Origin: Ignavibacteriota bacterium
GTDB taxonomy: Bacteria; Bacteroidota; Ignavibacteria; UBA10030
Assembly: GCA_003142575.1 (NCBI GenBank)
Contig: PLMS01000114.1
Span: forward strand, 8,227-69,777
Reading direction: 5' to 3'
Length of the DNA stretch: 61,551 nt
In this document: positions 22,738 through 55,809 of the stretch, piece after piece
Numbering within the stretch: the first letter of the stretch is position 1
Layout of the letters: each line of letters opens with the position of its first letter
Program-made: the position numbers and the translations under genes
The notes under the pieces: model-generated
Databases searched by the model: none
Seen by the model: only the letters and a program-made list of their open reading frames with translations
Told to the model about the DNA's origin: nothing

Positions 22738-22760
22738 ATATTCACCTCGTTTTATTTTCT

Positions 22761-22792: not shown

Positions 22793-22800
22793 AATTTTAT

Positions 22801-23786: not shown

Positions 23787-23793
23787 ATTGTTT

Positions 23794-23833
23794 AATCACC
23801 CAATCACTCAATCGCTCAATCACCAAATCGCAT
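23794..23833 (+). repeat. Octamer array, 5 units
   Basis: AATCACCC AATCACTC AATCGCTC AATCACCA AATCGCAT. Confidence 0.85.
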
Positions 23834-23835
23834 TA

Positions 23836-24231: not shown

Positions 24232-24412
24232 TGGTTTCTCCTTTTTAACTTGACTTTCTCATGCCCAATTCTTAGCTTTCTTAAAGAGTTTCGTCACCGA
24301 CTGATGCACCTAACAAAAACTGAAAATAATATGTCCGCTGTCTTTCTGCGTAACTCTCTCCTTAGTCGGTGATAGACTCGGAGAGGCGGCGGACTTCATT
24401 TTGGAGGTCGTT

Positions 24413-24817: not shown

Positions 24818-24844
24818 TATTGCGTTTCAGTTTCATTGTTTCTC

Positions 24845-26554: not shown

Positions 26555-26565
26555 TTTATCTTTTC

Positions 26566-26629
26566 AATCACCCAATCACCAATTCACTCAATCTCCCACT
26601 CACCCGATTACTCAATCTCCCAATCACTC
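26566..26629 (+). repeat. Octamer array, 8 units
   Basis: AATCACCC AATCACC AATTCACTC AATCTCCC ACTCACCC GATTACTC AATCTCCC AATCACTC. Confidence 0.85.
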
Positions 26630-26640
26630 ATTTTTTTTCA

Positions 26641-28107
26641 TCACCATTCTATTCTTTTCTTACCGCCAACCCATCCACCCGTGTTTGTCACACTTGCGGG
26701 TGGAGTTATTGCTCCATCAATTACGGCTTTGCCAGCAGCTACTTTTTGTAAAAAGGAATCTGAATTGTCGAACATTTTACGATATGTCTCCGGCACATCG
26801 CCGCCGGTATTCATGGATCGTTTTTCAAACAATTTAAACGTCGCGAGATCTGCGCTCAGACTTCTCACCTTCGATGGAACGGGATTCATCGGCACAATAT
26901 ATTTTTTGGCGGCATAACTATTTATATGATCGTCAGCCCATTCTATCGCCTCATCGATGACGGATTGAATAACGATTGTTTCAGAATCGCCGGTAAGCTG
27001 GCGGAGCTGCTCGAGACTTATCCGCGCCGGTGCAATATCGCCGTCGGCAGATCCATCCTGCGTGCAATAACCATCATACTGTGGTGCAGCTTCCGCTTCG
27101 ATCGATGCAGCTGGAATTCTTGTTTGCAGAAGTCCGATCACTGTGATCTTCGCGCAAGCTAATGCGGCCGAAAGATTGCCATCAACATCAACGGATTGGA
27201 TCGTAAACGTTTTCGATCCCACTATATCACTGAACCATCGGCAAGATTGGAACGATCCTTCGTAAACAATTTCTCCACTATCAGAAGTTACTCGTGTCTT
27301 CATCCAGCGTGTAGTTTTGAAGTCTACCCAGGAAAGAATCACCGATAAATTATCCAAGCTTTTTGTCGCGATAATTTCGGTAGGTATGCCCAAATCGAGA
27401 GTATTAATATTTTTTGTAATATCTGGACGTCCAAAACCATCCGCTTCCGTCCAGAGAGGATAAAGACTGCATATCTGTCTTAGATGTTGGCGTGCATCGT
27501 AATAATTATATTCCGGATGCGCATCGATGATCGCTGCAAGTTTCGACGCAACAACACCGACCGCTATACTCTCACCGATTATTAACCAATCGGAAAGAAA
27601 GTCGAAAAGCTCTAATCCCGGTCCCCATGACATAGTATTGTACGCTTCACCCCATCCACAGGTAATCGCACTATAAAGATATGGTGGTGCTTGTGGATAT
27701 GTAATTGGATCAGCATAACGATTATTATCGTCTGCATCATGCCCTGCGACAATATAGATGCCGGCATCATGCATCTGATCAATATTGAATTTATCTGAAA
27801 AAGCAGCTGAGACGGGTTCGACAGCGATTAAATAATTATTGGCAATTAAGTATTCTCCGAAATTACTACCATTGTCACATTTATAATAGTCGGGCGGGTT
27901 GTTGATTTGTGCATAACTAGTTGCATCGATAATCAAATCGAAATCCCAACCTGAAGGCATGCCACTAAGAAATGCTGCTCTCACGGCGTTGGAATGCGAA
28001 AGAACGCTGCCGACCCATGTAGCTGATATGCCTACTTTTTTTGACATGATATTTTTATTTGTAGGAACACAATATATTATGCCCGCTTTTGTAGGGACAC
28101 GATACAT
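26641..28107 (-). CDS. Mu gp36-like (DUF1320) adaptor domain fused to about 330-aa N-terminal domain(s)
   Basis: The C-terminal YCTQDG...ISLEQLRQLTGD...AIEWADDHINSYAAKKYIVPM...LSADLATFKLF matches the DUF1320/gp36 pattern. The start is uncertain: the first 20 codons translate the hairpin repeat, and an alternative ATG lies at 28047 (MSKKVGIS). Confidence 0.55.
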   Translation of the reverse strand: MYRVPTKAGIIYCVPTNKNIMSKKVGISATWVGSVLSHSNAVRAAFLSGMPSGWDFDLIIDATSYAQINNPPDYYKCDNGSNFGEYLIANNYLIAVEPVSAAFSDKFNIDQMHDAGIYIVAGHDADDNNRYADPITYPQAPPYLYSAITCGWGEAYNTMSWGPGLELFDFLSDWLIIGESIAVGVVASKLAAIIDAHPEYNYYDARQHLRQICSLYPLWTEADGFGRPDITKNINTLDLGIPTEIIATKSLDNLSVILSWVDFKTTRWMKTRVTSDSGEIVYEGSFQSCRWFSDIVGSKTFTIQSVDVDGNLSAALACAKITVIGLLQTRIPAASIEAEAAPQYDGYCTQDGSADGDIAPARISLEQLRQLTGDSETIVIQSVIDEAIEWADDHINSYAAKKYIVPMNPVPSKVRSLSADLATFKLFEKRSMNTGGDVPETYRKMFDNSDSFLQKVAAGKAVIDGAITPPASVTNTGGWVGGKKRIEW

Positions 28108-28114
28108 CGTGTCC
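28061..28114 (+). repeat. GTAGGGGC-hairpin elements, tandem pair (first degenerate)
   Basis: GTAGGAACACAATATATTATGCCC, then GTAGGGACACGATACATCGTGTCC. Confidence 0.7.
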
Positions 28115-28222
28115 GCTTTATCTTTTAGAAATCCGGAGAGGTGTTACTCCTCTCCGGACTTGAAGGAGGCTCACCGTCCCGCCGGCTATTGGGAACCGAC
28201 GAGACGTTCAGCATCCTTAAAA

Positions 28223-28257
28223 CTCTCCCCCTTTTCTAGGGGGAGAAATAGAGGGGG
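28223..28257 (+). repeat. TCTCCCCC-hairpin / purine mirror element, copy B
   Basis: CTCTCCCCC-TTTTCTA-GGGGGAGA-AATAGAGGGGG. Confidence 0.7.
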
Positions 28258-28258
28258 T

Positions 28259-29257
28259 TTAGCTTGCGCCTGTGCTACCATACGTGAGCTGATGCAAACC
28301 GACACCTGCATTCCATCTTACACGCACGCCATAAATATAGAGATCATGCATGAAGACAAGATCGCTCTGATTCGGATTTGTCTTCTCGACAAATTCCGGA
28401 GCAATACGCGTCTGATGAATGAGCGGCATCAAACCGGCAAATGGCCGGATAAGGAACCATGCCGTTGCGCTTGTGATCTGCGGACTTACAACTAAGTCGG
28501 CTGAATTTTTCCACGGGTTGTTTTGAGTGCTGCCGCTGGCAATAGAAATAAAATCAGCATTCAAACCGGTCCGTGCTTTTTCATCCATTTCCGGACCTAC
28601 AACAAGAATATCTCTTTCGCTGCCGTAGAAGAGCGGGCGTCCTTCACTATCCTTCACACGTCCCAAAGCGGCTTTGGCAATTGCATAACTGCCTCCGGTT
28701 GCGAAACTCAATGCGGCTACAGCTGTATTTGATCCACTCGCATGATTGGCCGAATAAAGAGTATAACCGTCGTAACTTTTTATAGTAGTGAATCCACCGT
28801 TGAGTAATCCGAATATAAGTTCATCCGGATGCAGCCGAACGGACGTTCCCATAGCAGCCATCATCATTCCATAGACACCGTATTGATCGTCTTCAATTGC
28901 AGCGCGTTCGACCTGCACGGTGCTTTCGAATGTTTTATTTCTAATAGTATAATTATTTGCTGCTAATTTTTTAATCTGGCGTTCGCCGATGAACTCGCGC
29001 AGTTTCGGCCACGCGCCAAGCCATGCATATCCTTGGTCCAATGTTGTCGATGGAATTTCCATCGCAATTTTTTGCCATTGCGGCTGGGCTGCAGAGAGCG
29101 CTTGATTAAAAATCGTGTTCCATGATTTATAAAGTCCCTGGATGTTTGCAGGATTAATAACTATTCCCGCTGCAAGCATTCCGACCGCGCCCGCCGGATG
29201 CGCAAAGAATGCGACAAACGCAAGCACGATCAAAGTCCATTTCAAAATTCGTTTCAT
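28259..29257 (-). CDS. Major capsid protein, Mu gpT family
   Basis: NIQGLYKSWNTIFNQAL...YAWLGAWPKLREFIGERQIKKLAANNYTIRNKTFESTVQVERAAIEDDQYGVY closely follows the Mu gpT pattern. AAGGAG lies 7 nt before ATG 29257. That ATG adds a hydrophobic 26-aa extension; Met27 is an alternative start. Confidence 0.85.
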   Translation of the reverse strand: MKRILKWTLIVLAFVAFFAHPAGAVGMLAAGIVINPANIQGLYKSWNTIFNQALSAAQPQWQKIAMEIPSTTLDQGYAWLGAWPKLREFIGERQIKKLAANNYTIRNKTFESTVQVERAAIEDDQYGVYGMMMAAMGTSVRLHPDELIFGLLNGGFTTIKSYDGYTLYSANHASGSNTAVAALSFATGGSYAIAKAALGRVKDSEGRPLFYGSERDILVVGPEMDEKARTGLNADFISIASGSTQNNPWKNSADLVVSPQITSATAWFLIRPFAGLMPLIHQTRIAPEFVEKTNPNQSDLVFMHDLYIYGVRVRWNAGVGLHQLTYGSTGAS

Positions 29258-29297
29258 ACTGCTTCTCCTTAAATTGTTTGTTTTGTTTTTTATTTTC

Positions 29298-29361
29298 CAT
29301 CACTCAATCGCCCAGTCACCCAATCTCCTCCCCTTATTTCTAAGGGGAGGGAAGGGTGGGG
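29298..29361 (+). repeat. Octamer array (4 units) merging into TCTCCCCC-type hairpin copy C with a G-quadruplex motif
   Basis: CATCACTC AATCGCCC AGTCACCC AATCTCCT, then CTCCCC-TTATTTCTAA-GGGGAG. GGGGAGGGAAGGGTGGGG lies at 29344-29361. Confidence 0.8.
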
Positions 29362-29367
29362 TTGTTT

Positions 29368-30294
29368 TTATGTCGCAATCAAAATTGTAACCGTGCATCC
29401 CGTCGCTACCGAATTTGAACCGCCGACGGTAAAATTAATATCGCTTCCAATCGCGACCGTATTCGCAGCAGAAGGAGAACACACGTTCACCTGACCTGCG
29501 GCTGATCCGGCTTGAACCAATGTAACGACGCCGGTTGTAATTGCTACCGCCGCGATCTGACCGGTCAAAGTTGCATTACCGGTCCCGAGAGCGGCTTTCA
29601 AACTCGTTTGTATTTTCGTAATCGTTCCGGCAACGGGCGATGCAATGCGATATACTGCCGTGCCATTAAGAAGAGCAACATCGAGCGTTAATGCGACAAG
29701 GTTTGCGCCGAGATTCGCGCGGGCAGTGGGTTTGCTCGTCACATCGCTGAGATTATTTGTCGAGACTAAATCGCCGCTGATCGAAATCGTATTGCCCGGC
29801 ATCAATACCCAGACATAACTTGCATCGACGTCAACAATTTTACCAGCAACGCTGCGTGTACCAACGCCATCCGTCTTTGCGACTGTGTTATCGTCGACGA
29901 TATAACATGCATCTCCGATCTCAGTCTGCGCAATTAAATCTGCGGCTGCACTGTTATTGTAGGCGAAGACGCCGCGTTTTACCCGCACAAACAGATCGCC
30001 GGATTGACCAAGCGTATTATCTATTTGCTGCGTCGATCGTCCGCAACAAATAAGACCTGTGCCGGGGACTCCAGGCTTTGCATAGCCGGCTGCATCGAGC
30101 ACAACGATTGCATTTTCATAAATTAATACTCCGGTGAGAACAGGATAAGAAAAGAATTCACCTTCGCGTTCCGAACCCGTCCAGTCCTGAGCCAATACCG
30201 TCATCGCAAATGGAAACACCGTTCCGCCGGTGACCTTCTGAATCAACAGCGCAGCTCCGAAAAGCAGCGCCAGAATAATCAAACTGTGTATCAT
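29368..30294 (-). CDS. Head-associated protein (decoration/cement-like candidate) with hydrophobic N-terminus
   Basis: 308 aa, between the protease/scaffold and capsid genes. AAAGGAG lies 6 nt before the ATG. The N-terminus is MIHSLIILALLFGAALLIQKVTGG. The C-terminal half is Ala/Thr/Gly-rich. Confidence 0.4.
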   Translation of the reverse strand: MIHSLIILALLFGAALLIQKVTGGTVFPFAMTVLAQDWTGSEREGEFFSYPVLTGVLIYENAIVVLDAAGYAKPGVPGTGLICCGRSTQQIDNTLGQSGDLFVRVKRGVFAYNNSAAADLIAQTEIGDACYIVDDNTVAKTDGVGTRSVAGKIVDVDASYVWVLMPGNTISISGDLVSTNNLSDVTSKPTARANLGANLVALTLDVALLNGTAVYRIASPVAGTITKIQTSLKAALGTGNATLTGQIAAVAITTGVVTLVQAGSAAGQVNVCSPSAANTVAIGSDINFTVGGSNSVATGCTVTILIAT

Positions 30295-30360
30295 ATTAAA
30301 CTCCTTTAAAAATGTGAATAGATATTTTATTTTGCTCGATACTCGAAACTCGTTACTTTT

Positions 30361-31542
30361 CTACTTCTTCGCCGGATTGTATTTTGCAACATCTTCAGGT
30401 TTCAGCTTGAAGGTTGCTGCGATTGCTTTGTCAGCATCGGTCAATCCATCTTTTCCAGCAACGATCTGTTCACCGCCTTCAGGCAGCTTTCCGCTCGGCA
30501 GAATCACCGGCGCGGCCGCAAGGTACGTCTCGAATGCTTTTATGTCTTTCGCGGCAAAAATGCGCATCGCATCTTTTGTCGCAGGAGTGATCTTGCCATC
30601 GGTAATTCCTTTTGCAACAATCGCGTCGACTGCCGCATTGACTTCCTTCGTTTTCAATGCATCGAGTTCGGTTTGGAGCGTTACTACTTTTGCCGCGCTC
30701 TCTTTTGCAGCGATGTGAATTGCGGTAGCTTCCTCGATCGTCGCGCCATCTTTCGCGCAGATCACTTTTACGAGATCGGTTTTGGCGGCAATGGCGATCT
30801 TGGCGCCCGAGATATACATGAGCACATCTTTTGCTGCGATCTCGGTCGTAGCAGCCAGGGCTGTCTTTACGTTCGCTGCGAATTCCGTAAACTTCGCCGC
30901 AACCGTTTGTTCGTCTGCGGTCTCGGCAATCCCGAGAAACGCACAGAGTTTTTTAATGACTTCGTTCATACTGGTATCCTTTCCTGAAATGGTTTGAAAA
31001 TATTGTTTAGCTACTATTGGCTGTAATTCGTCGATCAAAGGTTCGTTCGTGAGAGCAGCACTGAGAATCATGCAGGGGAAAATCTCGCCGGTGACTTTAT
31101 CTCTTCCATTCAAAGCAAAGACAGGTGAGACATATCGATATTCATGATTCTTTAAATATTCATTCGCTTTACTTGTCCATTCGCTCATCTGTGCGCGCAA
31201 TACTTTCTTGCCATCGCGTACTATAGAGACAAGACCGTTCATCCAGCCGGCAGCCGGAGCTTGAATGTCTTTTAAAGTCTGATGCTCATAGTCCACAACG
31301 AGATCTCTTTTGGGCGCGCGTTCTCGTCTTTGAGCAAGATGCCTTACGGCAGAATCAATATGCTCCGCTGTGATAATAAATGGCTGAATCTTTCCATTGA
31401 TGTCTTTTGCTTTTGGATATGCTGCACCTTCGACGAGGAGGTCAAATTCCAGCGGTACAACCGGATCGGCTTGACCGATTTTTAATACCTGACTGGATAA
31501 ATCCGTTTCGCTTCCAAAAATCACGATTTCTTTTTTATTCAT
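30361..31542 (-). CDS. Mu gpI-like prohead protease / scaffold
   Basis: The N-terminal half (DYEHQTL...APAAGWMNGL...YVSPVF) resembles Mu I-family proteases. The C-terminal half is Ala/Lys-rich and helical, like a scaffold. Directly upstream of the capsid module. Confidence 0.75.
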   Translation of the reverse strand: MNKKEIVIFGSETDLSSQVLKIGQADPVVPLEFDLLVEGAAYPKAKDINGKIQPFIITAEHIDSAVRHLAQRRERAPKRDLVVDYEHQTLKDIQAPAAGWMNGLVSIVRDGKKVLRAQMSEWTSKANEYLKNHEYRYVSPVFALNGRDKVTGEIFPCMILSAALTNEPLIDELQPIVAKQYFQTISGKDTSMNEVIKKLCAFLGIAETADEQTVAAKFTEFAANVKTALAATTEIAAKDVLMYISGAKIAIAAKTDLVKVICAKDGATIEEATAIHIAAKESAAKVVTLQTELDALKTKEVNAAVDAIVAKGITDGKITPATKDAMRIFAAKDIKAFETYLAAAPVILPSGKLPEGGEQIVAGKDGLTDADKAIAATFKLKPEDVAKYNPAKK

Positions 31543-31556
31543 CGCATTCTCCGTAC

Positions 31557-31579
31557 GGGCGAGGTCACCTCGCCCCTAC
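31557..31579 (-). repeat. GTAGGGGC-hairpin element (reverse orientation)
   Basis: The minus strand reads GTAGGGGCGAGGTGACCTCGCCC, just upstream of the protease start. Confidence 0.7.
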
Positions 31580-31840
31580 TTTCTTTTTCATCGCTTCAAA
31601 TTTCCAATGCATAATCTTTTGTATATCCTGATCTTGTAATACTTTTTGCAGCACTGCCTGCACGAGATGCTCAACAATAATATCCAGCAGCCACTTGATT
31701 CGAAACGCCACATTGATCGTCAGCGTTATAAGCACCACCGCGGTTATTAAATAAAGCTTCAGCAGATCTTCCAGCCAGGGCGTGAGTAATATGCTGAGGG
31801 TGATCGATGTGTTGGCAAGAATATAAAGAGCGCGGTTCAT
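31565..31840 (-). CDS. Small two-TM membrane protein (holin candidate)
   Basis: 91 aa. Two hydrophobic helices (LYILANTSITLSILLTPWL and LYLITAVVLITLTINVAF) followed by a charged tail. Downstream of the endolysin. Confidence 0.4.
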   Translation of the reverse strand: MNRALYILANTSITLSILLTPWLEDLLKLYLITAVVLITLTINVAFRIKWLLDIIVEHLVQAVLQKVLQDQDIQKIMHWKFEAMKKKVGAR

Positions 31841-31843
31841 TCA

Positions 31844-32104
31844 CTATCCTTGTCCGAGTTCCCTTTCTATCACTTCAATCTCAATAGATATTTTCTTAAG
31901 CTCGCGCATCTTGCGTTCGATTGTCGACACGTTCACCTTCAACCGTTCCGGTATAATGTTCTTCACATATTCGAGATCTTGATCGAGCGGCTCGAAGTGA
32001 AGAATGATTCCCTTCGCTGCAGTGTCGATTTCAATTTTCAAAGTCTCAAGGCGAAGTTGATATTCTCTCTGCCGTCCGAGCAATGTCGTTCTACCTGTGA
32101 TCAT
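31844..32104 (-). CDS. Small coiled-coil protein of the lysis cassette
   Basis: 86 aa, charged and helical, between the endolysin and the membrane protein. Confidence 0.3.
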   Translation of the reverse strand: MITGRTTLLGRQREYQLRLETLKIEIDTAAKGIILHFEPLDQDLEYVKNIIPERLKVNVSTIERKMRELKKISIEIEVIERELGQG

Positions 32105-32107
32105 GTT

Positions 32108-32770
32108 TTACTCCAGTTTGTATCTTCGCATGAGCGTGACCAGCTTTATTGCATATTCCGGATCCGCTGCGTAATGCTTAGCGAGTTCCATTGCAAATTT
32201 CTCCGGCTGATCCGAATGTTTGAATGCGTTCGCGTAGAGCTTTGAACCCTGAATGTATTGTCCGTACACGTTGAAACATTCCGCAATATTTTTGAAGCGA
32301 GCAAAGCGGACAATCTCCGGAATCGCAATTCCGTTCACAAACCTTTTGTCCTGTTGTATAACATACTTCGGTTGTTGCATGTATTTTTTCACCGCTGCCA
32401 ATGTCATTCCGAAGTAATTCTCCGCTCCCAAACTGCATAGTCCCCACTTTGATTCTAGGATCCATTGTGCAATTACCACGCCTTTCGGAATTTTACAATA
32501 TGCTTCGATGTGAGATGCCAGAGCACGGACTGTGTCTGGAATTTTCCGCAACTGAAATATTCCGGATTTGTCGCGATGGATGATACCTGCAACCAGAATT
32601 GAGTCAGGTTCCGGATTCGTCCATTCTCCAATGACGAAATCCAGGATTTCTTTTGAATCATCTTTGCGTACTTGCTCCGGAGGGTTTTTAAATAGAAGGA
32701 AAAGGATAATGCCGCCAAGCATAAAGCCAAGACACATACCGAGAGATAACCAGCCAATTTTTGATCGCAT
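32108..32770 (-). CDS. Endolysin, glucosaminidase (FlgJ-like) domain with N-terminal signal-anchor
   Basis: GGAG lies 9 nt before ATG 32770; the TTG start at 32809 in the ORF track overlaps the terminator T-run. TM WLSLGMCLGFMLGGIILFLLF. VVIAQWILESKWG...ENYFGM matches the glucosaminidase motif. Confidence 0.75.
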   Translation of the reverse strand: MRSKIGWLSLGMCLGFMLGGIILFLLFKNPPEQVRKDDSKEILDFVIGEWTNPEPDSILVAGIIHRDKSGIFQLRKIPDTVRALASHIEAYCKIPKGVVIAQWILESKWGLCSLGAENYFGMTLAAVKKYMQQPKYVIQQDKRFVNGIAIPEIVRFARFKNIAECFNVYGQYIQGSKLYANAFKHSDQPEKFAMELAKHYAADPEYAIKLVTLMRRYKLE

Positions 32771-32807
32771 AAATCTTTCTCCGGCATTTTCGTTTTCACT
32801 TTTAAAC

Positions 32808-32856
32808 AAAAAAAAATGCCGAGTCTGCTTTCCTCATTTGGAAAACAAACTCGGCA
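32808..32856 (-). terminator. Intrinsic terminator directly upstream of the lysis/late arm
   Basis: The minus strand reads TGCCGAGT-(24-nt loop with inner TTTCC/GGAAA stem)-ACTCGGCA followed by T9. The T-run ends 37 nt before the endolysin ATG. Confidence 0.7.
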
Positions 32857-32965
32857 CCTTATGATCGGTTTACCGAATATCTAAAGCTTATGTCGTTCCC
32901 GCATAAGCGGGAGTCTTATTCAAATACTGCTACAACGTACGATTTGGTATTTTAAAAGTCAATAG

Positions 32966-33259
32966 CTATCTACATATCCAATTCTTAACGCCGCCATGAG
33001 AAGAACAAGCTCCGCTTCCAGTCGCGGTGCTTGTGGTGCCATCATTACAAATTGCGCCGGTTCTGTTTGCTGCAGCGCAATCAGTTGAAACAGGATTATT
33101 ATTCGGGACTGAATTGTCGGTTGAAATAGAATTGCTACCGTTCTTACATGAATGAAAAATAACCAAAAGAAGAATGGCGACAACAAATAATAAACCTGCT
33201 TCCCAAATATTTTTGAAGCGAACCATATTGTCCATTTTAAGATAAATGGAAATATTCAA
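32966..33259 (-). CDS. Small membrane-anchored protein with DUF3761-like Cys motif
   Basis: TM GLLFVVAILLLVIF. C-terminal CNDGTTSTATGSGACSSHGGVKNWI resembles DUF3761. Confidence 0.5.
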   Translation of the reverse strand: MNISIYLKMDNMVRFKNIWEAGLLFVVAILLLVIFHSCKNGSNSISTDNSVPNNNPVSTDCAAANRTGAICNDGTTSTATGSGACSSHGGVKNWICR

Positions 33260-33648
33260 TACTTCTTTTGATAGACCTTGCGGCCGCTCTTACTATAATG
33301 ATAAATACCTCCTCGGGGTCCTTGATATAGAGTCTTCCCTGTCGGCGTCGTTCCAATCTGCGTTTCTTTTGATGACGTGGAACTGTTCTTTTGAATTTTG
33401 GAAGTTGATTTTTTCTTTGATAGAGTAGATAGAACGGGTGGAGCACAGCGAGAACAAGGTGAATATTTTGCGCTCGCTTCCGACAATTTCATCGGTATCG
33501 AACTCCTCTTCAGATAGGAACAACCGGCTGAGTGATACTTGCTTCCGGTTCGAGTGACATAGACTATTTGATCTTCCTGACTTTGGGAAAAGAGAATCGC
33601 TGAGAATAGAATGATGAATAGTGAAAAAGAAAATAAATGTTTCTTCAT
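33256..33648 (-). CDS. Secreted small protein: Cys-motif domain plus basic GPRGG.Y tail
   Basis: AAAGGAGGG lies before ATG 33648. Signal peptide MKKHLFSFSLFIILFSAILFS. YVTRTGSKYHSAGCSYLKRS...YSPCSRC motif. The C-terminal GPRGGIYHYSKSGRKVY resembles the PBCV-type basic adaptor motif. Confidence 0.5.
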   Translation of the reverse strand: MKKHLFSFSLFIILFSAILFSQSQEDQIVYVTRTGSKYHSAGCSYLKRSSIPMKLSEASAKYSPCSRCAPPVLSTLSKKKSTSKIQKNSSTSSKETQIGTTPTGKTLYQGPRGGIYHYSKSGRKVYQKKY

Positions 33649-33714
33649 GACAAACCCTCCTTTGAATTGTGCCTTGAGAATCATTCAGTAATGCAAATAA
33701 AATTCTATAGGTCT

Positions 33715-34062
33715 CTACCAGCCGCTCTTAGACTTACCGGCAAGCGCCGGATGGGAAGAAAGTTCGCTGAAGAATTCTGTGATCAATTTCTGTGCTCTTC
33801 CACTCGTTGCTAATCCCTCTGCAGCTGATGCGCTGCCATGCACCATTGTTCCTTCTCCGGATTTTGAGATCTGCAATATTAACTCTCGATTTGCATTCAT
33901 ACTAAACATCGGTGCCTTCGCAGAGATCATACCGGTCTGAGGTGAGAACTCACTTAATTTTAATCCCATCGATTGGATTATTTCACGACAAGCATCCGCA
34001 ACGATACTTCCTTTGATAGAATATTCGGACGAATATTCTGCTTTAGATTGGCTCAGTCCCAT
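33715..34062 (-). CDS. Hypothetical protein co-transcribed with the repressor
   Basis: 115-aa ORF starting 3 nt after the repressor stop. No recognisable motif. Confidence 0.35.
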   Translation of the reverse strand: MGLSQSKAEYSSEYSIKGSIVADACREIIQSMGLKLSEFSPQTGMISAKAPMFSMNANRELILQISKSGEGTMVHGSASAAEGLATSGRAQKLITEFFSELSSHPALAGKSKSGW

Positions 34063-34064
34063 AA

Positions 34065-34526
34065 TTATTTCCTCCTCTTTTTAGTTACACCATATTTTAC
34101 CTGCGGCTCTGCAACCATTTTATATTGATGCGACTTTCCGGTCCCTTTTTTAATTTTATCCTGCACTGCTTGTGCGTAATCAAAGTAAATATGAAAATCG
34201 ATTGGTTCGGCTATTTCTAATGTACGAAGAATTGCGACAATCTCCATCTCGCCCTTCGTAAGTTCTTGTTGAGAGATCCGCGCGACCATCTCGCTGAATT
34301 TTTTATTCGTTTCTTCTTTGTCTAATCCCGTCATCAGCCAATCAATGTCGCAGCCGAGAGCGCGTAATTTGTCCTGCATCTTGTTCCCGGGACGCGCCTT
34401 GCCGCTGAGATAAGGCGATATTCCTTCTGACACTATTCCGAGTGCAGAAGCGAATGCACCCACGCTCCCATACTTACCAATACCCCACTTTCGCAGCCTT
34501 TTTCCAATTTCTACATGCTTATTCAT
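34065..34526 (-). CDS. Phage repressor (XRE-type HTH)
   Basis: IGKRLRKWGIGKYGSVGAFASALGIVSEGISPYLSGKARP is an HTH_3-like motif. Divergent from the early operon. Its start abuts an operator palindrome. Confidence 0.7.
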   Translation of the reverse strand: MNKHVEIGKRLRKWGIGKYGSVGAFASALGIVSEGISPYLSGKARPGNKMQDKLRALGCDIDWLMTGLDKEETNKKFSEMVARISQQELTKGEMEIVAILRTLEIAEPIDFHIYFDYAQAVQDKIKKGTGKSHQYKMVAEPQVKYGVTKKRRK

Positions 34527-49404: not shown

Positions 49405-49665
49405 ATGAAGAGACGAATCAAAGCTTTTTTCATCGCAACGCTCTCATTCATATTTCCGGTGAGCTGGAGGCATGGATTAAGAAGGCGCTGCCATTTTGGA
49501 AAATTAAACTCATTCGATCATCCCCTCTTTGTGAAATTTCTCGGATTGTTTTTCGATGTGCGCACGAGTGTAAAAGGAAATGTCGAGTTTTGGTTCGGTG
49601 AAAGAGAAAAAGTGAAGCAGAAGAGACGTTTTAGAAAATTATTAAAGCGAATCGTGGCACAATGA
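49405..49665 (+). CDS. Small basic protein
   Basis: 86 aa with an Arg/Lys-rich C-terminus (KQKRRFRKLLKRI). Confidence 0.35.
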   Translation: MKRRIKAFFIATLSFIFPVSWRHGLRRRCHFGKLNSFDHPLFVKFLGLFFDVRTSVKGNVEFWFGEREKVKQKRRFRKLLKRIVAQ

Positions 49666-49760
49666 AGCATTGGTTATTAATATTAATTTTATTCATCGTT
49701 CAAACGTCCTCCTCGGATGCTGTAAAAACAACACATCATCCACCATCACAGGAGTACTGT

Positions 49761-50558
49761 ATGAACAAACTTTTTGCATACCCGGGCGGCAAGTGGCCGA
49801 TCCGTCATCTCGTCATTTCAGCATATCCTCCACACACGACTTACGTCGATGTGTTTGGCGGGTCCGCTGCACTGATTATCTCTAAAGAGAAGAGTGCCGG
49901 CGAAGTCTTCAACGATAAGAACGAAGAACTCGCTAACTTTTTCCGTGTTGTCAAGCATCGGCCGGCTGAACTTGCCGAACGCGCAAAACACTGGCTGCAT
50001 AGCCGAGCGCTGTGGAATGAATTGAAAAAGGCACAGCGCTCTCCTGATGAAATAGAACGCGCTTTTGTATTTTGGGTTTCTCTGGCAGATAGTTTCGGCG
50101 GCATGGGAAAGAACTTTGGAACTGCCAAATCTGGCATTCGATCTGTTACGCATTCAAGAGAATATCTTTCGGCTGTAGCGGAAAGATTCGCTGGTGTCCA
50201 TGTGGAATGTCTCGACTTTCGCGGATGCATCCGCGTTTATGATTCACCGGAAACATTCTTTTATATCGATCCGCCATATCCGGATACGCGAGGCGGTTCT
50301 TCAAATTACGATCTCCTCACCGAACAGGATTGGATCGATCTGCGCGACCAATTGAAGAGCATCAAAGGAAAGTTTTTACTTTCCTCGAACGATCATAAAC
50401 TGGTGAAGAAATTGTTTGCCGAATTCAATATTCGGAAGATTAATGTTCGTGTCACGCTGCCAAAAAATAATAGCAACGCGATGCGAAAGGAACTGCTCAT
50501 CAGTAATTATACTCTGCCTCCTCTTTGCACGAAGGAAAAACTGTCAAAATCTGCATGA
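49761..50558 (+). CDS. N6-adenine DNA methyltransferase (Dam-like, D12 class)
   Basis: AGGAG lies 7 nt before ATG 49761. MNKLFAYPGGKWP. FVDVFGGSAA (AdoMet motif). FFYIDPPY (catalytic DPPY). Confidence 0.8.
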   Translation: MNKLFAYPGGKWPIRHLVISAYPPHTTYVDVFGGSAALIISKEKSAGEVFNDKNEELANFFRVVKHRPAELAERAKHWLHSRALWNELKKAQRSPDEIERAFVFWVSLADSFGGMGKNFGTAKSGIRSVTHSREYLSAVAERFAGVHVECLDFRGCIRVYDSPETFFYIDPPYPDTRGGSSNYDLLTEQDWIDLRDQLKSIKGKFLLSSNDHKLVKKLFAEFNIRKINVRVTLPKNNSNAMRKELLISNYTLPPLCTKEKLSKSA

Positions 50559-51286: not shown

Positions 51287-52489
51287 ATGATGCCTGAGAT
51301 AGTTGATTCATATAGTGAAAGCAATTGGAGTCAATCGGCTAATTGTAACGCATCAGCTTACATCGGAGAGGCTCAATGCTTTACCGGCAATGGCGATAAA
51401 CTATCTAGTGTGAAATTTTATTGTTATAAAATAGGCTCGCCAACGGGGAATGTTTACGCAAAATTATATGCGATGACTGGAACCTATGGATCAACTGGAA
51501 CCGCAACGGGAAGTGTCTTGGCGACATCCAGTCCCGTTGATATAGGCTCTAGTAATTTTCCAACAACAAAAAATTTAGTAGAATTTACTTTTGATGGCAC
51601 ATATCCATTAGGAAATGGAGTCCATTATGTCGTTGAAATTGAATATAATGGTGGAGACGGCTCGAACACACTTGCGGTAGGAAAGGATACGACGTCACCT
51701 ACGCATGGTGGCAACAATGTCCAACTATATAATACTGGAATATGGTATGCTCGAGCCGTAAATGATTTATGTTTTTATATTTATGGTGCAACATCTACTA
51801 TTGTTCTTGCTGGTAATATTTCTGCTGTCGCATCTTCCGCCGGCGACCTTTGTGGATCTGTTTCCATTGGCGGTGGCATATCTGCTTCAAGTTTTTTAGC
51901 AGCTCTTCTTTCTAAATCTCTTTCTATTGCAGGAAACATTTCTGCTGTCGCGTATTCTACTGGCGACCTTTATGGATCTGTTTTTATCGGCGGTGGCATA
52001 TCTGCTTCAAGTTTTTTAGCGGCTATTCTTTCCAAATCTCTTTCGATTGCCGGAATTGCCGCTGGGTCTGCTATAATAACCGGATCGATGTTTCAGACTC
52101 TTTCTATTAATGGAGTTGCTTCCGGATTTGCAACGGCAACTGGCTCTATGTTCCAAACTCTTTCGATTGCCGGAGATATTTCAGCATCGTCTGTCTTGTC
52201 GGGTTTATTTGGCTTCCATCTTTCTTTGAATGGCAATATGTATGGGATCTCGTACTTATTGGGTGAGATTCTTATTACACCTTTGTCGTGGTTGGAGAAA
52301 TTGCGATGGATAGCAAAGAGAATAGACGTCGGCGCTCAACGTCGATCAGCAAAGAATATTAATGTGAACGCACAGCGATTATCAGCAAAAGATATTGATG
52401 TGAACACACAGCGATCCTCTGCAAAGACAATCGGTATCGAAACTCAGCGCAACGCAGCAAAAAATCTGGATAACTATACCAACAGGTGA
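51287..52489 (+). CDS. Repeat protein: N-terminal beta domain + 8 x 20-aa repeats + 4.5 x 12-aa basic repeats
   Basis: The 20-aa periodicity is S-I-x-G-x-x-S...L. The C-terminal repeat is AK.I.V.AQR.S. The underlying DNA carries 120-, 60- and 36-bp tandem repeats. Confidence 0.5.
   Translation: MMPEIVDSYSESNWSQSANCNASAYIGEAQCFTGNGDKLSSVKFYCYKIGSPTGNVYAKLYAMTGTYGSTGTATGSVLATSSPVDIGSSNFPTTKNLVEFTFDGTYPLGNGVHYVVEIEYNGGDGSNTLAVGKDTTSPTHGGNNVQLYNTGIWYARAVNDLCFYIYGATSTIVLAGNISAVASSAGDLCGSVSIGGGISASSFLAALLSKSLSIAGNISAVAYSTGDLYGSVFIGGGISASSFLAAILSKSLSIAGIAAGSAIITGSMFQTLSINGVASGFATATGSMFQTLSIAGDISASSVLSGLFGFHLSLNGNMYGISYLLGEILITPLSWLEKLRWIAKRIDVGAQRRSAKNINVNAQRLSAKDIDVNTQRSSAKTIGIETQRNAAKNLDNYTNR
51809..52228 (+). 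repeat. Intragenic tandem repeats (2 x 120 bp, then 60-bp units)
   Basis: 51809-51928 and 51929-52048 are near-identical. 52049-52108, 52109-52168 and 52169-52228 are related 60-mers. 36-bp units follow at 52313-52489. Confidence 0.8.
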
Positions 52490-53273: not shown

Positions 53274-54692
53274 ATGAAAAAAAAGAGTAACCCGACATCT
53301 AAAATAAAATCGAAGTTGAGCGATCAGTTAACCGAGCGAATTCCTGTCGTCAGTATCACCGATCGGTTCTCAGATTATCCTGGACGCCACTTAACACCGC
53401 GCCGGCTTGCAGAAATTCTCGAAGAAGCCGACTCCGGATATGTTCACCGGCAGAATGAATTGTTCTCGGAGATGTTAGAGAAAGATGCCAAGCTTTTGGC
53501 AGTTTTTCAGGCCCGCAAATTATCGGTTATCCGCAGGAATAGGACCGTTATTCCTTATTCGACAGCTCCAAAAGACCTGAAAATAGCAGAAGATGTTCAG
53601 ATTAACTTTAAAGGTTTGAGGCATTTAAATTTTATTATCGGCAACATTGCCGATTGCGTGCCCAAGGCCTACTCTGTGAATCAAATCAACTGGAATCAGA
53701 GAGATAGAAAATACATGTTCGATGATATAACTTTTGTCGATCCGAAAAAATTCCGTCTTGGAAAGGCCACCGATCTCTATAGCGATCCGAATGAATTGCG
53801 CATGCTGATAGATCCGAATCGAATCCAATATTATAAAGGAATATTCAGCGATGAGGAACTTGCGAATAGTCCTGTCGATGGTGTAAGTATAGAGAACGAT
53901 CCGATGGTAAGACAGCGATTTATTATCGCACATTCAAATGCAATGAGTGGATTAGTAGCGCGAACCGCACTCATGCGTCCATTAACATATCTTTATCTTT
54001 TTAAAAACTACGATATTAAATGGTGGCTGAAATTTGCTGAGACCTTGCTTGGCTATCGAGTTGGAAAATACGATACATCCCAACCGGATCAGAAGGCACT
54101 ATTGATTACAGCAATACAGGGATTAGCAGAAGATTCGGCGGCTGTGATTTCAAAAGAATCTGATATTACATTTGTGCAAATGGCAGCGCAAGCGGCAAGC
54201 CATCTTGTTTATGGTGACCTGCAGAAATGGGTAGACGATACATACGGACAACTTGTCCTGGGCCATACCGGATCGTCACAAGCCACACCCGGAAAACTTG
54301 GCGGCGAGGACATGGCGAAGGAGGTTAAACAGGAATTTGTTGAAGCCGATGCGGCTGTTATCGATGAAGCAATCTCTGATGATCTTTTTAAACCTTATGT
54401 CATCGCGAATTACGGTCCACAAGACGGCTATCCTTATTGTCAAACCGATGTATCGCAAGCGCTTGATATGCTGAAGGAAACAAATATCGATTTAAATTTA
54501 CAAAAAATGGGGTTCCCTTTAACATTGCGCTACGCGAAGGAGAAATATGGACGGCCGCTTCCAAATCCTGACGATCCAGAGGATAAAATACTTGTTCCAT
54601 CGCCAGTTGCATCTCCCAACAGCTTTCAGAATCAAGAAAACGATAAGACAGTAGCTGCTGACGGTAAAAAAAAACTTCTAACACAACGGTAG
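53274..54692 (+). CDS. Portal protein, Mu gp29/DUF935 family (frame-0 product)
   Basis: LTPRRLAEILEEADSGYVHRQNELFSEMLEKDAKLLAVFQARKLSV matches the DUF935 N-terminal pattern. Ends 18 nt after an A9 run. Confidence 0.8.
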   Translation: MKKKSNPTSKIKSKLSDQLTERIPVVSITDRFSDYPGRHLTPRRLAEILEEADSGYVHRQNELFSEMLEKDAKLLAVFQARKLSVIRRNRTVIPYSTAPKDLKIAEDVQINFKGLRHLNFIIGNIADCVPKAYSVNQINWNQRDRKYMFDDITFVDPKKFRLGKATDLYSDPNELRMLIDPNRIQYYKGIFSDEELANSPVDGVSIENDPMVRQRFIIAHSNAMSGLVARTALMRPLTYLYLFKNYDIKWWLKFAETLLGYRVGKYDTSQPDQKALLITAIQGLAEDSAAVISKESDITFVQMAAQAASHLVYGDLQKWVDDTYGQLVLGHTGSSQATPGKLGGEDMAKEVKQEFVEADAAVIDEAISDDLFKPYVIANYGPQDGYPYCQTDVSQALDMLKETNIDLNLQKMGFPLTLRYAKEKYGRPLPNPDDPEDKILVPSPVASPNSFQNQENDKTVAADGKKKLLTQR

Positions 54693-55534
54693 ATGAGTCT
54701 GCCTACGAAAAGCGCGTCAACGATGTCACCGAAAACGCAATCGAAGGCGCTATACCCATCTATCAACCCCTCGTTGAAAAGCTCTCAAAGGTTATTCGAA
54801 AGGCGGATAATTTTGAGTCCGCACAGTCCGCACTAATTAAATTTACCGACAAAGACTTCTTAAAATCTTTTTCCGCATACCTTCTTAATACACTCGAGAC
54901 ATCGGCAGCTCTCGGCGCCAGCCTTATAGTCCAAAAGGACGCTGCGCTCAGTGGAGAACAGAAAATCGTAGGGAAAAACATCGGCGACGATTGGTTTGTC
55001 TGCGATAATAACGGTGTGAATATCTCATTTAATGTTACATCGAAAGAGGTATTGGATTACCTGCGTGAGAAATCTATAAAGATTGCTGGAGTAGAACAGA
55101 AGGAATTGCTCGAGTCGATCAAGCAAGAGTTAATAAAGGCTGTTGAGGATGGAAAGAGTTTTGATGAATTGAAAGCTAATATCGATGAGCTATTTGACAG
55201 TGCGGGCGTGACAAAATTGTCGTATAGTCACATCCAATTGGTTTTTCGGATGAATACATTCGCGGCTTATTCGGTGGGACAAGCACAAAAAGTCGCGGAT
55301 ATGATCGATCAATTTCCATTGGCGTACTTCTCGCCAATCCATGATGGTCGATCACGTCATTTGCCACTCGAGGGCTATTACAATACAGATTCAATTCCGC
55401 TTCCGCCGATAAATTATAATTGCCGATGCGGCGTCCGATACATCCATATATCACAGATTACCGGCAACGAGGAAGTTTATGAGACGCCGCCAGCACCAGA
55501 ACTGATCGTTTTCGATCAGCGCGACGGCATGTGA
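54668..55534 (+). CDS. Start-less open frame: portal-C-terminus-like segment plus Mu F / SPP1 gp7 head-morphogenesis domain
   Basis: 289 codons are open from 54668, with no ATG/GTG/TTG before GTG 55016. The frame is reachable from the portal frame by a -1 slip on A_AAA_AAA (54668-54674). MuF motifs: QLVFRMNTFAAYSVGQ, FSPIHDGRSRHLPLEG, NCRCG. Confidence 0.6.
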   Translation, partial: KKTSNTTVDESAYEKRVNDVTENAIEGAIPIYQPLVEKLSKVIRKADNFESAQSALIKFTDKDFLKSFSAYLLNTLETSAALGASLIVQKDAALSGEQKIVGKNIGDDWFVCDNNGVNISFNVTSKEVLDYLREKSIKIAGVEQKELLESIKQELIKAVEDGKSFDELKANIDELFDSAGVTKLSYSHIQLVFRMNTFAAYSVGQAQKVADMIDQFPLAYFSPIHDGRSRHLPLEGYYNTDSIPLPPINYNCRCGVRYIHISQITGNEEVYETPPAPELIVFDQRDGM

Positions 55535-55655: not shown

Positions 55656-55809
55656 GACCATGCAATAATGTGATCATGCGTTTTCAAAAAGTCGCAAAAC
55701 TTCGCATTATTCTCGTTTAATGTGATAGGCATAAATCCCCTAACCACTTTAAAACTCGCGACTTAGTAAAAAGCTCGACCATGCGTTAATGTAACCCCTT
55801 ACATTAAAC
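55656..55809. repeat. Right prophage end: three transposase-site-like repeats including the terminal inverted repeat
   Basis: GACCATGCAATAATGTGATCATGCG (55656-55680), CTCGTTTAATGTGATAGG (55712-55729), GACCATGCGTTAATGTAACCCCTTACATTAAAC (55777-55809). Confidence 0.6.

What the first reader, a model, noticed from the sequence alone, without database searches (positions are those of the whole stretch)
54660..55016. A9 slippery run links the portal frame to a start-less frame encoding a portal-C-terminus-like segment plus the MuF domain
The portal ORF ends ...GGT AAA AAA AAA CTT CTA ACA CAA CGG TAG (stop at 54690-54692).

The -1 frame is open from 54668 to 55534 (289 codons). It has no ATG, GTG or TTG until GTG 55016, and that GTG has no SD. 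Its first 116 codons look like real coding sequence (..DESAYEKRVNDVTENAIEGAIPIYQPLVEKLSKVIRKADNFESAQSALIKFTDKDFLKSFSAYLLNTLETSAALGASL..). From memory this resembles the C-terminal segment of DUF935 portals. The Mu F/SPP1 gp7 domain follows.

A_AAA_AAA (54668-54674) is a classical -1 slippery heptamer in the portal frame.

There are two explanations. The first is a homopolymer sequencing error or mutation: A10 would fuse the frames. The second is that the phage makes two products, a 472-aa portal and a ~750-aa portal-MuF fusion, by programmed frameshifting or transcriptional slippage. The second would set a fixed low stoichiometry of MuF per portal ring, analogous to G/GT.
Basis: partly seen in the sequence, partly recalled or inferred. 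Interest (0 to 1): 0.7.

Follow-up and report, generated by a model that had tools for sequence, protein, structure and literature searches.

The report
Slippery A9 run fuses portal to MuF
A conserved run of nine A's near the end of a Mu-like prophage's portal gene most likely lets a fraction of portal chains shift frame, so they regain the missing portal tail and carry the MuF head protein, which has no start codon of its own; no recoding site in a portal gene turned up in the literature I could search.

Summary
The portal ORF (53274-54692) contains AAA AAA AAA at 54666-54674. The -1 frame opens at 54668 and runs to 55534 with no ATG, GTG or TTG before 55016.

It is not a sequencing error. 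Nine independent assemblies carry the identical sequence. Twenty-three diverged relatives (MuF 38-99% identical) keep an unbroken A9 or A10 run, the same -1 relation, and a portal stop 24 nt after the run (22 of 23).

Eight relatives with a broken or absent run all have an ATG or GTG for MuF overlapping the portal stop (Fisher p = 1e-6; at least four independent switches).

The start-less codons are under purifying selection (dN/dS 0.11-0.28). They are homologous to the C-terminal segment of standard Mu-type portals (hhalign 96.6%). In Mu that segment is absent from the mature virion and thought to be cleaved off. The MuF domain that follows matches Mu gp30 (97.9%).

Best explanation: programmed recoding at the run, by RNA polymerase slippage and/or -1 ribosomal frameshifting. 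It would yield a 472-aa short portal and a 753-aa portal + C-module + MuF fusion. No expression data exist. I found no prior report of recoding in a portal gene.

The parts
53274..54692 (+). Frame-0 portal ORF (472 aa, 'short portal'). The Portal_Mu domain covers residues 62-426. The ORF ends ...AADGKKKLLTQR*.
   Evidence: Pfam PF06074 at 198.7 bits against a cut-off of 23.9, covering profile positions 2-335 of 336. phrog_113 portal, E = 1.3e-73. The identical protein is found on at least 23 public contigs.
54665..54667 (+). TAA stop in the -1 frame immediately 5' of the run. It sets the upstream limit of any shift into the MuF frame.
   Evidence: Read directly from the sequence.
54666..54674 (+). 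A9 run (AAA AAA AAA = KKK in frame 0): the proposed recoding site. The heptamer A_AAA_AAA is 54668-54674.
   Evidence: Invariant in 23 of 23 distinct run-bearing relatives, whose flanks are mostly below 50% consensus. All 69 Lys codons in the run are AAA, although AAA makes up only 27-81% of Lys codons elsewhere in these genes (P about 1e-18 if independent).
54679..54681 (+). TAA stop in the +1 frame, two codons after the run. A8 or A11 transcripts would give a near-normal short portal ending KKNF*.
   Evidence: The +1 frame stops at this same position in 14 of 23 relatives and within 9 codons in 22 of 23.
54690..54692 (+). Frame-0 TAG stop of the short portal. It overlaps the GTA GAT (V D) codons of the -1 frame.
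   Evidence: The stop lies exactly 24 nt after the start of the run in 22 of 23 relatives.
54668..55534 (+). -1-frame ORF (288 codons) with no start codon of its own. It is read only after a shift at the run. The trans-frame product is 53274-54674 joined to 54674-55531, 753 aa.
   Evidence: No ATG/GTG/TTG before 55016. The fusion sequence was built. The first in-frame start codon is not at a conserved position in relatives.
54701..54931 (+). Portal C-terminal module, encoded in the -1 frame (AYEKRVNDVTENAIEGAIPIYQPLVEKL...ETSAALGASLIV). It is homologous to the last ~77 residues of standard Mu-type portals.
   Evidence: hhalign A5 vs A6: 96.6%, E = 5.1e-10, 77 columns. A6 vs Mu gp29 residues 390-509: 96.8%. 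dN/dS is 0.11-0.28. The last 124 residues of Mu gp29 are absent from the virion structure (PMC11915804).
55016..55018 (+). GTG that gene callers use as the MuF start, giving a 172-aa product. It is probably not a real start.
   Evidence: No SD-like motif precedes it. Homology and purifying selection extend 114 codons upstream. The position of the first in-frame start varies among relatives.
55034..55447 (+). MuF (Mu gp30 / SPP1 gp7-like) minor head protein domain, including the PPINYNCRCG motif.
   Evidence: hhalign A1 vs Mu gp30 residues 14-192: 97.9%, E = 4e-13. tblastn hits Mu, D108 and SfMu gene 30. phrog_220, E = 2.6e-14. Pfam PF04233 at 28.0 bits, below the 29.6 cut-off for this copy, but 10 of 10 family members hit, best E = 2.5e-11.

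Best explanation
The A9 run is a programmed recoding site inside what is, by homology, one long Mu-type portal reading unit.

Standard decoding stops 5 codons after the run. It gives a 472-aa short portal that lacks the canonical C-terminal module.

A set fraction of products shift into the -1 frame at the run. This can happen in two ways: RNA polymerase adds one A (A10 mRNA), and/or two tRNA-Lys slip back by one base on A_AAA_AAA. The two routes give the same protein. That protein is 753 aa: portal core + linker (KKK-TSNTT) + canonical portal C-terminal module + MuF minor head/pilot protein.

This is the only evident way MuF is made in this phage.

Inferred consequences:
- The long chains co-assemble into the portal dodecamer with their C-termini facing the capsid interior. 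MuF is thus delivered covalently, in a number set by the slippage rate.
- By analogy with Mu gp29, whose C-terminal 124 residues are missing from the virion, the head protease may later cut the module and MuF free.

Shown here: the anatomy, the conservation, the covariation with start codons, selection on the start-less codons, and the homologies.
Inferred: that shifting happens in vivo, which machine slips, the ratio of products, co-assembly and cleavage.
For: 1. Reproducibility. The identical 935 nt with A9 occurs in 9 independent assemblies.

2. Conservation. Twenty-three distinct junctions from relatives (MuF 38-99% identical, synonymous sites largely saturated) keep an uninterrupted A9. 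Two have A10 by substitution, which leaves the frames unchanged. MuF is always in the -1 frame. The portal stop is at +24 nt in 22 of 23.

3. Codon choice. All 69 run codons are AAA against a 58% background (1e-18 if independent).

4. Covariation. All 8 junctions with a broken or absent run have ATG or GTG overlapping the portal stop. Only 1 of 23 run-bearing junctions does (Fisher p = 1.1e-6). A neighbour-joining tree suggests at least 4 independent switches.

5. The start-less codons are translated. dN/dS is 0.11-0.28, and there is no conserved internal start.

6. Colinearity. The module right after the run is homologous to the C-terminus of ordinary Mu-type portals. Mu gp30 lacks that module, because its MuF domain begins at residue 14. 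The trans-frame product therefore restores the canonical portal order.

7. Known precedents.
- Bacterial RNA polymerase slips efficiently on runs of 9 A or T (PMC5009743).
- In-frame portal-MuF gene fusions exist in Microbacterium phages (PMC7302621).
- SPP1 gp7 is carried into procapsids by binding the portal, in a few copies (PMC6316719).
Against: - There is no transcript or protein evidence. Everything is comparative.
- No conserved RNA structure flanks the run (RNAalifold found 0 pairs), so there is no classical -1 frameshift stimulator. This is neutral for polymerase slippage.
- The KKKLL motif is partly a protein-level constraint. Run-less relatives keep K-x-K/R-L-L, so some of the run's conservation reflects the portal tail peptide.
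- In run-less relatives the module + MuF is a free-standing protein, so a covalent link is not obligatory.
- L008 has both a run and a GTG at the stop. L073, from another clade, has A10 plus ATGATG.
- The relatives are phylogenetically related, so the quoted P values are upper bounds on significance.
- An A9 run as such is not rare in the window.
Confidence: 0.8

Rival explanations
1. MuF (with the module) is translated on its own from a non-canonical start near the portal stop, such as GUA at 54689. This would happen by termination-reinitiation or by weak near-cognate initiation. Under this view the A-rich run is only a lysine motif or an A-rich leader.
For: Run-less relatives make the same protein as a separate polypeptide from an ATG at exactly this position. 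Only a few copies of MuF may be needed (PMC6316719). The frame-0 KKKLL peptide motif is itself conserved.
Against: - The codon at that position is GTA, ATA or TTA in 22 of 23 run-bearing relatives, not a usable start.
- No SD precedes it, although this host uses SDs.
- It does not explain why the run is never interrupted (never AAG) when no start is present, yet always interrupted when an ATG or GTG is present.
- It does not explain why the module is colinear with the portal C-terminus.
Confidence: 0.08
2. The run is a heritable DNA-level phase-variation site. Phage genomes would switch between A9 (separate frames) and A10 (fused gene) during replication, rather than being recoded at the RNA or ribosome level.
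For: Homopolymers of 9 or more bases are hypermutable. A10 would fuse the frames exactly.
Against: All 9 assemblies of this phage and all 23 diverged lineages are in the same out-of-frame state. No in-frame fused allele was found among close relatives. The two A10 cases arise by substitution and keep the frames apart.
Confidence: 0.05
3. Only the 172-aa product starting at GTG 55016 is made, as gene callers annotate it. The 116 upstream codons would be an untranslated remnant.
For: Public gene calls use this GTG. It lies just before the Pfam MuF domain.
Against: - The upstream codons have dN/dS of 0.11-0.28.
- They are homologous across the family and to portal C-termini.
- The first in-frame start codon falls at a different position in nearly every relative.
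- No SD-like motif precedes the GTG.
Confidence: 0.04
4. The arrangement is a sequencing or assembly error, or a decaying prophage. Under this view the true gene is an in-frame fusion, or MuF is a pseudogene.
For: Homopolymers are error-prone. One near-identical contig (L022) has an unrelated 1-nt deletion nearby.
Against: The run is identical in 9 independent assemblies, including Illumina-based ones. It is conserved in 23 lineages with dS of about 0.5 up to saturation. Both ORFs are under purifying selection. The prophage has intact head, tail, transposase and terminase genes.
Confidence: 0.02

Closest known systems
Phage lambda G/GT-type tail assembly chaperone frameshift (Levin et al. 1993; Xu, Hendrix & Duda 2004; cited in PMC2628397 and PMC7302621)
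   Same: A conserved slippery site near the end of a phage structural gene gives a short product and a C-terminally extended product in a fixed ratio. Often no stimulatory RNA structure is present. The site was recognised by conservation across diverged phages.
   Different: The genes are different (portal and MuF, not tail chaperones). The site is a 9-nt homopolymer, which also suits polymerase slippage. The extension is an entire second virion protein. In relatives the frameshift alternates with a separate start codon.
Programmed transcriptional realignment on A9/T9 runs (Thermus thermophilus dnaX, IS elements; review PMC5009743)
   Same: The run length is exactly 9, matching the RNA-DNA hybrid length. 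Extra A's in the mRNA give access to another frame by standard translation. No stimulator is needed.
   Different: It has not been described for a phage portal or any head gene in the literature I could search. Here the +1-A product is a fusion of two structural proteins. The heterogeneous mRNA has not been shown.
In-frame portal-MuF fusion genes of Microbacterium phages, clusters EA3/EA5/EA8/EB (PMC7302621)
   Same: The same two functions sit on one polypeptide, with portal at the N-terminus and MuF at the C-terminus. This shows the covalent arrangement is viable.
   Different: Those are single uninterrupted ORFs, so every subunit carries MuF. Here the frames differ and only shifted products are fused. 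The portals are unrelated in sequence family (not shown to be Portal_Mu).
Phage Mu gp29 (portal) and gp30 (F, minor head protein/DNA pilot)
   Same: The families are homologous and the gene order is the same. The module after the run corresponds to the gp29 C-terminal region (residues ~440-509). That region lies within the 124 residues absent from the Mu virion. The MuF domain matches gp30 residues 14-192.
   Different: In Mu the module is part of the portal ORF. gp30 has its own start, overlaps gp29 by 20 nt, and lies in the +1 frame. Here the ORF boundary sits ~110 codons earlier, the module is joined to MuF, and no start codon exists.
SPP1 gp6-gp7 (portal and MuF-like minor capsid protein)
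   Same: MuF-type protein is targeted to the procapsid interior through the portal, in a few copies (PMC6316719).
   Different: In SPP1 the link is non-covalent binding of a separately translated protein.
C-terminally extended head proteins made by frameshifting (for example the Lactobacillus phage A2 major head protein, -1; cited in PMC10885494)
   Same: Recoding yields a minor, longer version of a head structural protein that is built into the capsid.
   Different: Those extend the major capsid protein with a short domain. Here the portal is extended with its own missing tail plus another protein.

Membership tests
Portal_Mu (PF06074 / DUF935, Mu gp29-like portal) | Significant match to the Portal_Mu profile over its full length | tested here: met
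   198.7 bits against a cut-off of 23.9. Residues 62-426 match profile positions 2-335 of 336. phrog_113 portal, E = 1.3e-73.
Portal_Mu (PF06074 / DUF935, Mu gp29-like portal) | C-terminal ~80-120-residue segment ending in the ...A-x-L-x-GR motif, as in Mu gp29 residues 390-512 | tested here: not met
   The frame-0 ORF stops before this segment (alignment). The segment is present only in the -1 frame after the run (hhalign 96.6%). The feature is therefore met by the trans-frame product, not by the annotated ORF.
Portal_Mu (PF06074 / DUF935, Mu gp29-like portal) | Context: a Mu-like transposable phage with the terminase upstream | tested here: met
   Mu transposase C-terminal domain, a MuB-like AAA protein, DUF1804 small terminase and a large terminase lie upstream.
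Phage_Mu_F (PF04233; Mu gp30 / SPP1 gp7-like minor head protein) | Match to the family profile above the curated threshold | tested here: inconclusive
   The window copy scores 28.0 bits against a cut-off of 29.6 (E = 3.9e-6). All 10 family members scanned hit PF04233, best E = 2.5e-11.
Phage_Mu_F (PF04233; Mu gp30 / SPP1 gp7-like minor head protein) | Homology to Mu gp30 itself, including the PP-x-x-x-NCRC motif | tested here: met
   hhalign 97.9%, E = 4e-13 to gp30 residues 14-192, aligning PPINYNCRCGVR with PPNGWNCRCRVR. tblastn hits gene 30 of Mu, D108 and SfMu.
Phage_Mu_F (PF04233; Mu gp30 / SPP1 gp7-like minor head protein) | Gene located immediately downstream of the portal gene | tested here: met
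-1 programmed ribosomal frameshift (X_XXY_YYZ tandem slippage) | Heptamer in the correct phase within the overlap of the two frames | tested here: met
   A_AAA_AAA at 54668-54674 lies between the -1-frame stop (54665) and the 0-frame stop (54690).
-1 programmed ribosomal frameshift (X_XXY_YYZ tandem slippage) | Conserved downstream stimulatory structure or upstream SD-like element | tested here: not met
   RNAalifold on 23 sequences (-30 to +99) predicts no conserved pair. This is not obligatory, since many phage tail frameshifts lack stimulators (PMC5009743).
-1 programmed ribosomal frameshift (X_XXY_YYZ tandem slippage) | Trans-frame protein demonstrated from unedited mRNA | not testable with these tools
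   Needs reporter assays, mass spectrometry and RNA sequencing.
Programmed transcriptional realignment (RNA polymerase slippage) | Homopolymeric A or T run of about 9 or more, conserved in length across diverged relatives | tested here: met
   A9 in 21 and A10 in 2 of 23 distinct relatives. The run is never shorter and never interrupted. The slippage threshold comes from the literature.
Programmed transcriptional realignment (RNA polymerase slippage) | Heterogeneous run length in mRNA but not in DNA | not testable with these tools
   The DNA is uniform. No RNA data are available.
In-frame portal-MuF fusion genes (Microbacterium phage type) | Portal and MuF domains in one uninterrupted ORF | tested here: not met
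   The frames differ by -1 in the window and in all close relatives. No fused protein was found among close relatives.

The most novel reading that the evidence does not exclude
This may be the first programmed recoding site found in a phage portal gene. An A9 slippage site splits a Mu-type portal so that most subunits are made short. A fixed minority carry the canonical, protease-removable C-terminal module plus the MuF pilot protein, which is thereby metered into the procapsid by a covalent tether. Across this phage lineage, evolution has switched repeatedly between this solution and a separately initiated MuF gene. Distant Mu-like phages may use a third state, a permanent in-frame fusion.
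Probability: 0.7. Interest if true: 0.78.

Novelty: new variant of a known kind. Interest (0 to 1): 0.72.

Why it matters
How minor internal head proteins such as MuF/gp7 get into capsids in small, defined numbers is only partly understood. A slippage-set portal-MuF fusion would be a simple dosing device, analogous to Gag-Pol or G/GT, but at the unique portal vertex.

It would also have these consequences:
- It shows that the cleaved-off C-terminal segment of Mu-type portals is a mobile module. It can sit on the portal, on MuF, or bridge both, which hints at its function as a portal-MuF coupling or capsid-targeting segment.
- It adds the portal to the list of phage genes that use recoding.
- It gives a natural test set of 23 run-bearing and 8 run-less relatives for separating transcriptional from translational slippage.
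- It corrects systematic mis-annotation. Public gene calls truncate this MuF to 160-240 aa from spurious internal starts.

Tried and rejected
- **RNA structure around the run.** Single-sequence folds of the 70 nt downstream differ from sequence to sequence. RNAalifold on 23 sequences (-30 to +99) gave zero conserved pairs. No stimulator can be claimed.
- **Rfam.** No match in the whole window.
- **AlphaFold.** The -1 ORF with a 10-sequence alignment gave mean pLDDT 44.7, so it was unusable and no fold search was run.
- **PDB sequence search** with the MuF family profile: no hit.
- **Direct hhalign of the module (A5) against Mu gp29 alone.** Not significant. The link holds only through the profile of standard portals.
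- **Are the ~710-760-aa distant Portal_Mu proteins in-frame portal-MuF fusions?** There are only sub-threshold Pfam hits to PF04233 and PF06152. hhalign to the MuF family, to the module and to Mu gp30 is weak or not significant. tblastn against phages found nothing. This is left as a possibility only.
- **Chance occurrence of A9.** The run is not unusual by itself, so the argument rests on conservation.
- **SD usage.** I first assumed the Bacteroidota host would not use SD sequences. This was rejected: 15 of 30 starts in the window have SD-like motifs.
- **sigma-70 promoter and terminator scan of 53.0-56.2 kb.** Counts were at shuffle level.
- **Literature.** Searches for portal + frameshift or slippage found no report of portal recoding. 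The large Atkins 2016 review has no mention of 'portal' in the held text. Sharma et al. 2011 could not be retrieved.
Full report
**1. The observation**

The window carries a Mu-like transposable prophage. It has a Mu transposase, a MuB-like ATPase, a DUF1804 small terminase, a large terminase, a Portal_Mu portal and a MuF-like ORF. The right end lies next to uvrB.

The portal ORF (53274-54692, frame 0) ends GGT AAA AAA AAA CTT CTA ACA CAA CGG TAG. The A run is 54666-54674.

The -1 frame has TAA at 54665-54667. It is then open from 54668 to 55534, and its first ATG/GTG/TTG is GTG 55016.

Any shift into the MuF frame must occur between 54668 and 54689. An A9 run alone is not improbable: the window has 3, with 4.6 expected.

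**2. It is not an error**

The identical 472-aa portal is recorded on at least 23 public contigs. Nine loci from different samples and assemblers are identical to the window over 935 nt, including the A9.

A search with the hypothetical 753-aa fusion found no in-frame fused protein among close relatives. All portals at 44-100% identity are 464-478 aa long.

**3. Relatives**

I collected about 31 distinct portal-MuF junctions from these searches:
- a protein search;
- contig look-ups;
- scans of metagenome, genome and viral collections.

The hosts are Bacteroidota MAGs, including Ignavibacteriales.

In every relative with a long upstream portal ORF, MuF lies in the -1 frame relative to the portal.

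Twenty-three distinct junctions (MuF 38-99% identical to the window) have these features:
- An uninterrupted A9. Two have A10 through a C-to-A or flanking substitution that leaves the frames unchanged.
- The run is the only fully invariant block, and the surrounding columns are mostly below 50% consensus.
- The frame-0 stop lies exactly 24 nt after the run starts in 22 of 23.

Elsewhere in these genes AAA accounts for 27-81% of Lys codons, yet all 69 run codons are AAA. That gives P of about 1e-18 if the sequences were independent. Relatedness weakens this figure, but dS between the window and its nearest distinct relative is already about 0.5, and it is saturated for most pairs.

**4. Covariation with a start codon**

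Eight distinct relatives lack the run. Their sequences at that position are AAAGTTAAA, AAAATAAAA, AAAATAAGA, AAATTAAAA, AAAATTAGA and AAAATAAGC, or no run at all. Every one has an ATG or GTG for MuF overlapping the portal stop, in ATGA, TGATG, TAATG or GTGA arrangements.

Of the 23 run-bearing junctions only L008 has such a codon, a GTG. Fisher's exact test gives p = 1.1e-6.

On a neighbour-joining tree of MuF the run state spans the whole tree, and the start-codon state appears at least four times. This is a crude tree, so the count is approximate.

In run-bearing relatives the first in-frame start codon lies 12 to 360 nt past the portal stop, at non-homologous positions. Gene callers consequently truncate the protein to 160-240 aa.

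**5. What the start-less codons are**

They are translated. dN/dS for codons 10-116 is 0.11-0.28 in ten pairwise comparisons.

They align with the N-terminal region of the free-standing MuF proteins of run-less relatives.

They are also homologous to the C-terminal segment of ordinary 510-545-aa Portal_Mu proteins:
- hhalign of 23 N-terminal segments against 17 portal C-termini gives 96.6% probability, E = 5.1e-10, over 77 columns, running up to the terminal ...LGR motif.
- That portal C-terminal profile maps to Mu gp29 residues 390-509 of 512 (96.8%).
- The cryo-EM study of Mu reports that the last 124 residues of gp29 are absent from the virion, consistent with cleavage by protease I (PMC11915804).

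The MuF family profile matches Mu gp30 residues 14-192 (97.9%, E = 4e-13). Mu gp30 therefore lacks this module.

The arrangement in Mu is [portal core + C-module] then [MuF], with a separate start. Here it is [portal core] - A9 - [C-module + MuF]. The trans-frame product restores the canonical portal order and then continues into MuF.

It is also the strongest single argument that the two frames are meant to be joined.

**6. Mechanism**

Adding one A to the mRNA (A10) and -1 tandem slippage on A_AAA_AAA give the same 753-aa protein (...AADGKKK-TSNTTVDESAYEK...).

Bacterial RNA polymerase slips efficiently on runs of 9 A or T, and the product is biased towards insertions. Thermus dnaX uses this (PMC5009743).

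Several observations fit polymerase slippage somewhat better than ribosomal frameshifting:
- The run is always 9-10 bases.
- It never contains the AAG variant, which would still give an A_AAA_AAG heptamer.
- No conserved RNA structure is present.

They do not exclude ribosomal frameshifting, and both may contribute.

The third frame, reached by A8 or A11 transcripts, stops two codons after the run in 14 of 23 relatives (KKN[FS]*) and within nine codons in 22 of 23. All three frames therefore give defined products.

**7. Function (inferred)**

SPP1 gp7, a MuF-type protein, is carried into the procapsid by binding the portal, in a few copies, and it supports the start of infection (PMC6316719).

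In-frame portal-MuF genes exist in Microbacterium phages (PMC7302621). Portal C-termini face the capsid interior (established portal architecture; my own knowledge).

A minority of long portal chains would thus place MuF inside the head at a dose set by the slippage rate. The module, as in Mu, may be removed by the head protease encoded at 30361-31542 on the minus strand.

Run-less relatives achieve the same end with a translationally coupled, separately initiated module + MuF protein.

**8. Rivals**

- Independent initiation at a near-cognate codon. It does not explain the unbroken run, the exclusivity with start codons, or the colinearity with portals.
- DNA-level phase variation. No in-frame allele was seen in any assembly or lineage.
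- Initiation only at GTG 55016. This is contradicted by selection and homology upstream, and by the non-conserved position of the first start.
- Error or decay. This is contradicted by reproducibility and conservation.

**9. Known or new**

Full-text searches found no report of recoding in a portal gene. The held text of the comprehensive 2016 review of frameshifting and slippage never mentions 'portal'.

No cultured phage has a close relative. The best tblastn hits are gene-30 homologues at 23-29% identity.

I rate this a new variant of a known kind: programmed recoding in phage structural genes, but in a new gene pair and with a new logic.

**10. Limits**

There are no expression data. The relatives come from metagenomes. 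The tree is a simple neighbour-joining tree. The P values ignore shared ancestry. The structure prediction failed. The identity of the C-terminal extension in long distant portals remains unproven.

Noticed in passing
window 14730-14770 and 55660-55730: The motif ATCACATTA[AT][AT], partly followed by GCATGGT, occurs twice near 14736 and 14758. It occurs twice more in inverted orientation near 55664 and 55716. These are candidate transposase-binding terminal repeats and would put the prophage at about 14.73-55.73 kb (~41 kb). Exact ends and the target-site duplication were not resolved.
   Followed up: partly
window 15683-34526 (minus strand) and 35507-55534 (plus strand): The layout is unusual for a Mu-like phage. 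Head protease (30361-31542), major head protein (28259-29257), head-tail adaptor (26641-28107) and tape measure (18334-20622) are on the minus strand of the left arm. Transposase, MuB, terminases, portal and MuF are on the plus strand of the right arm. Portal and MuF are thus the last genes at the right end, far from the other head genes. MuF is also within about 1 kb of the contig end in several IMG/VR relatives.
   Followed up: partly
L073:2970-3100 (IMGVR_UViG_3300010330_000143): A more distant Portal_Mu clade (37% identity) has an A10 run 8 codons before the portal stop. It also has an ATGATG start for MuF overlapping that stop, and the -1 frame is open through the run. This could be an intermediate state or an independent second case.
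   Followed up: partly
P0057-P0093 (about 20 proteins); loci L081, L086, L087, L089, L093, L095, L102, L114: Distant Portal_Mu proteins of 703-774 aa carry a ~290-aa C-terminal extension ending ...LPPYHPHCHG-x-VIKR. The extension gives only sub-threshold hits to Phage_Mu_F and Phage_min_cap2. These may be natural in-frame portal-MuF fusions in Mu-like phages, including ones from Syntrophales MAGs.
   Followed up: partly
window 53274-55531 (PHROG hits): phrog_10231, of unknown function, matches both portal residues 294-462 and MuF-ORF residues 143-184. Some phage proteins in that family may therefore span both genes.
   Followed up: no
L022:1270-1300: A contig 99% identical to the window has a 1-nt deletion (TTT to TT) in the portal about 45 nt upstream of the run, which breaks the portal frame. 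This is probably a low-coverage assembly error. The A9 itself is intact.
   Followed up: no
window 51287-52489: A 400-aa ORF between the fibre-like gene and the portal contains internal tandem repeats (GNISAVA.S.GDL.GSV.IGGGISASSFLAA.LSKSLSIAG, and a C-terminal RRSAKNINVNAQ-like unit about four times). It matches no Pfam or PHROG family.
   Followed up: no
window 12147-12155 (minus strand) and 32808-32816 (plus strand): There are two further A9 runs in the window. The first lies about 65 nt inside the listed ORF 10343-12220 (minus strand). The second lies at the start of ORF 32108-32809 (minus strand). Neither was examined for recoding.
   Followed up: no
window 49662-50558: The Dam-like DNA methyltransferase ORF starts with a hydrophobic 33-residue extension (MKHWLLILILFIVQ...) before the conserved region. 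The real start is probably the internal Met at about residue 34.
   Followed up: no
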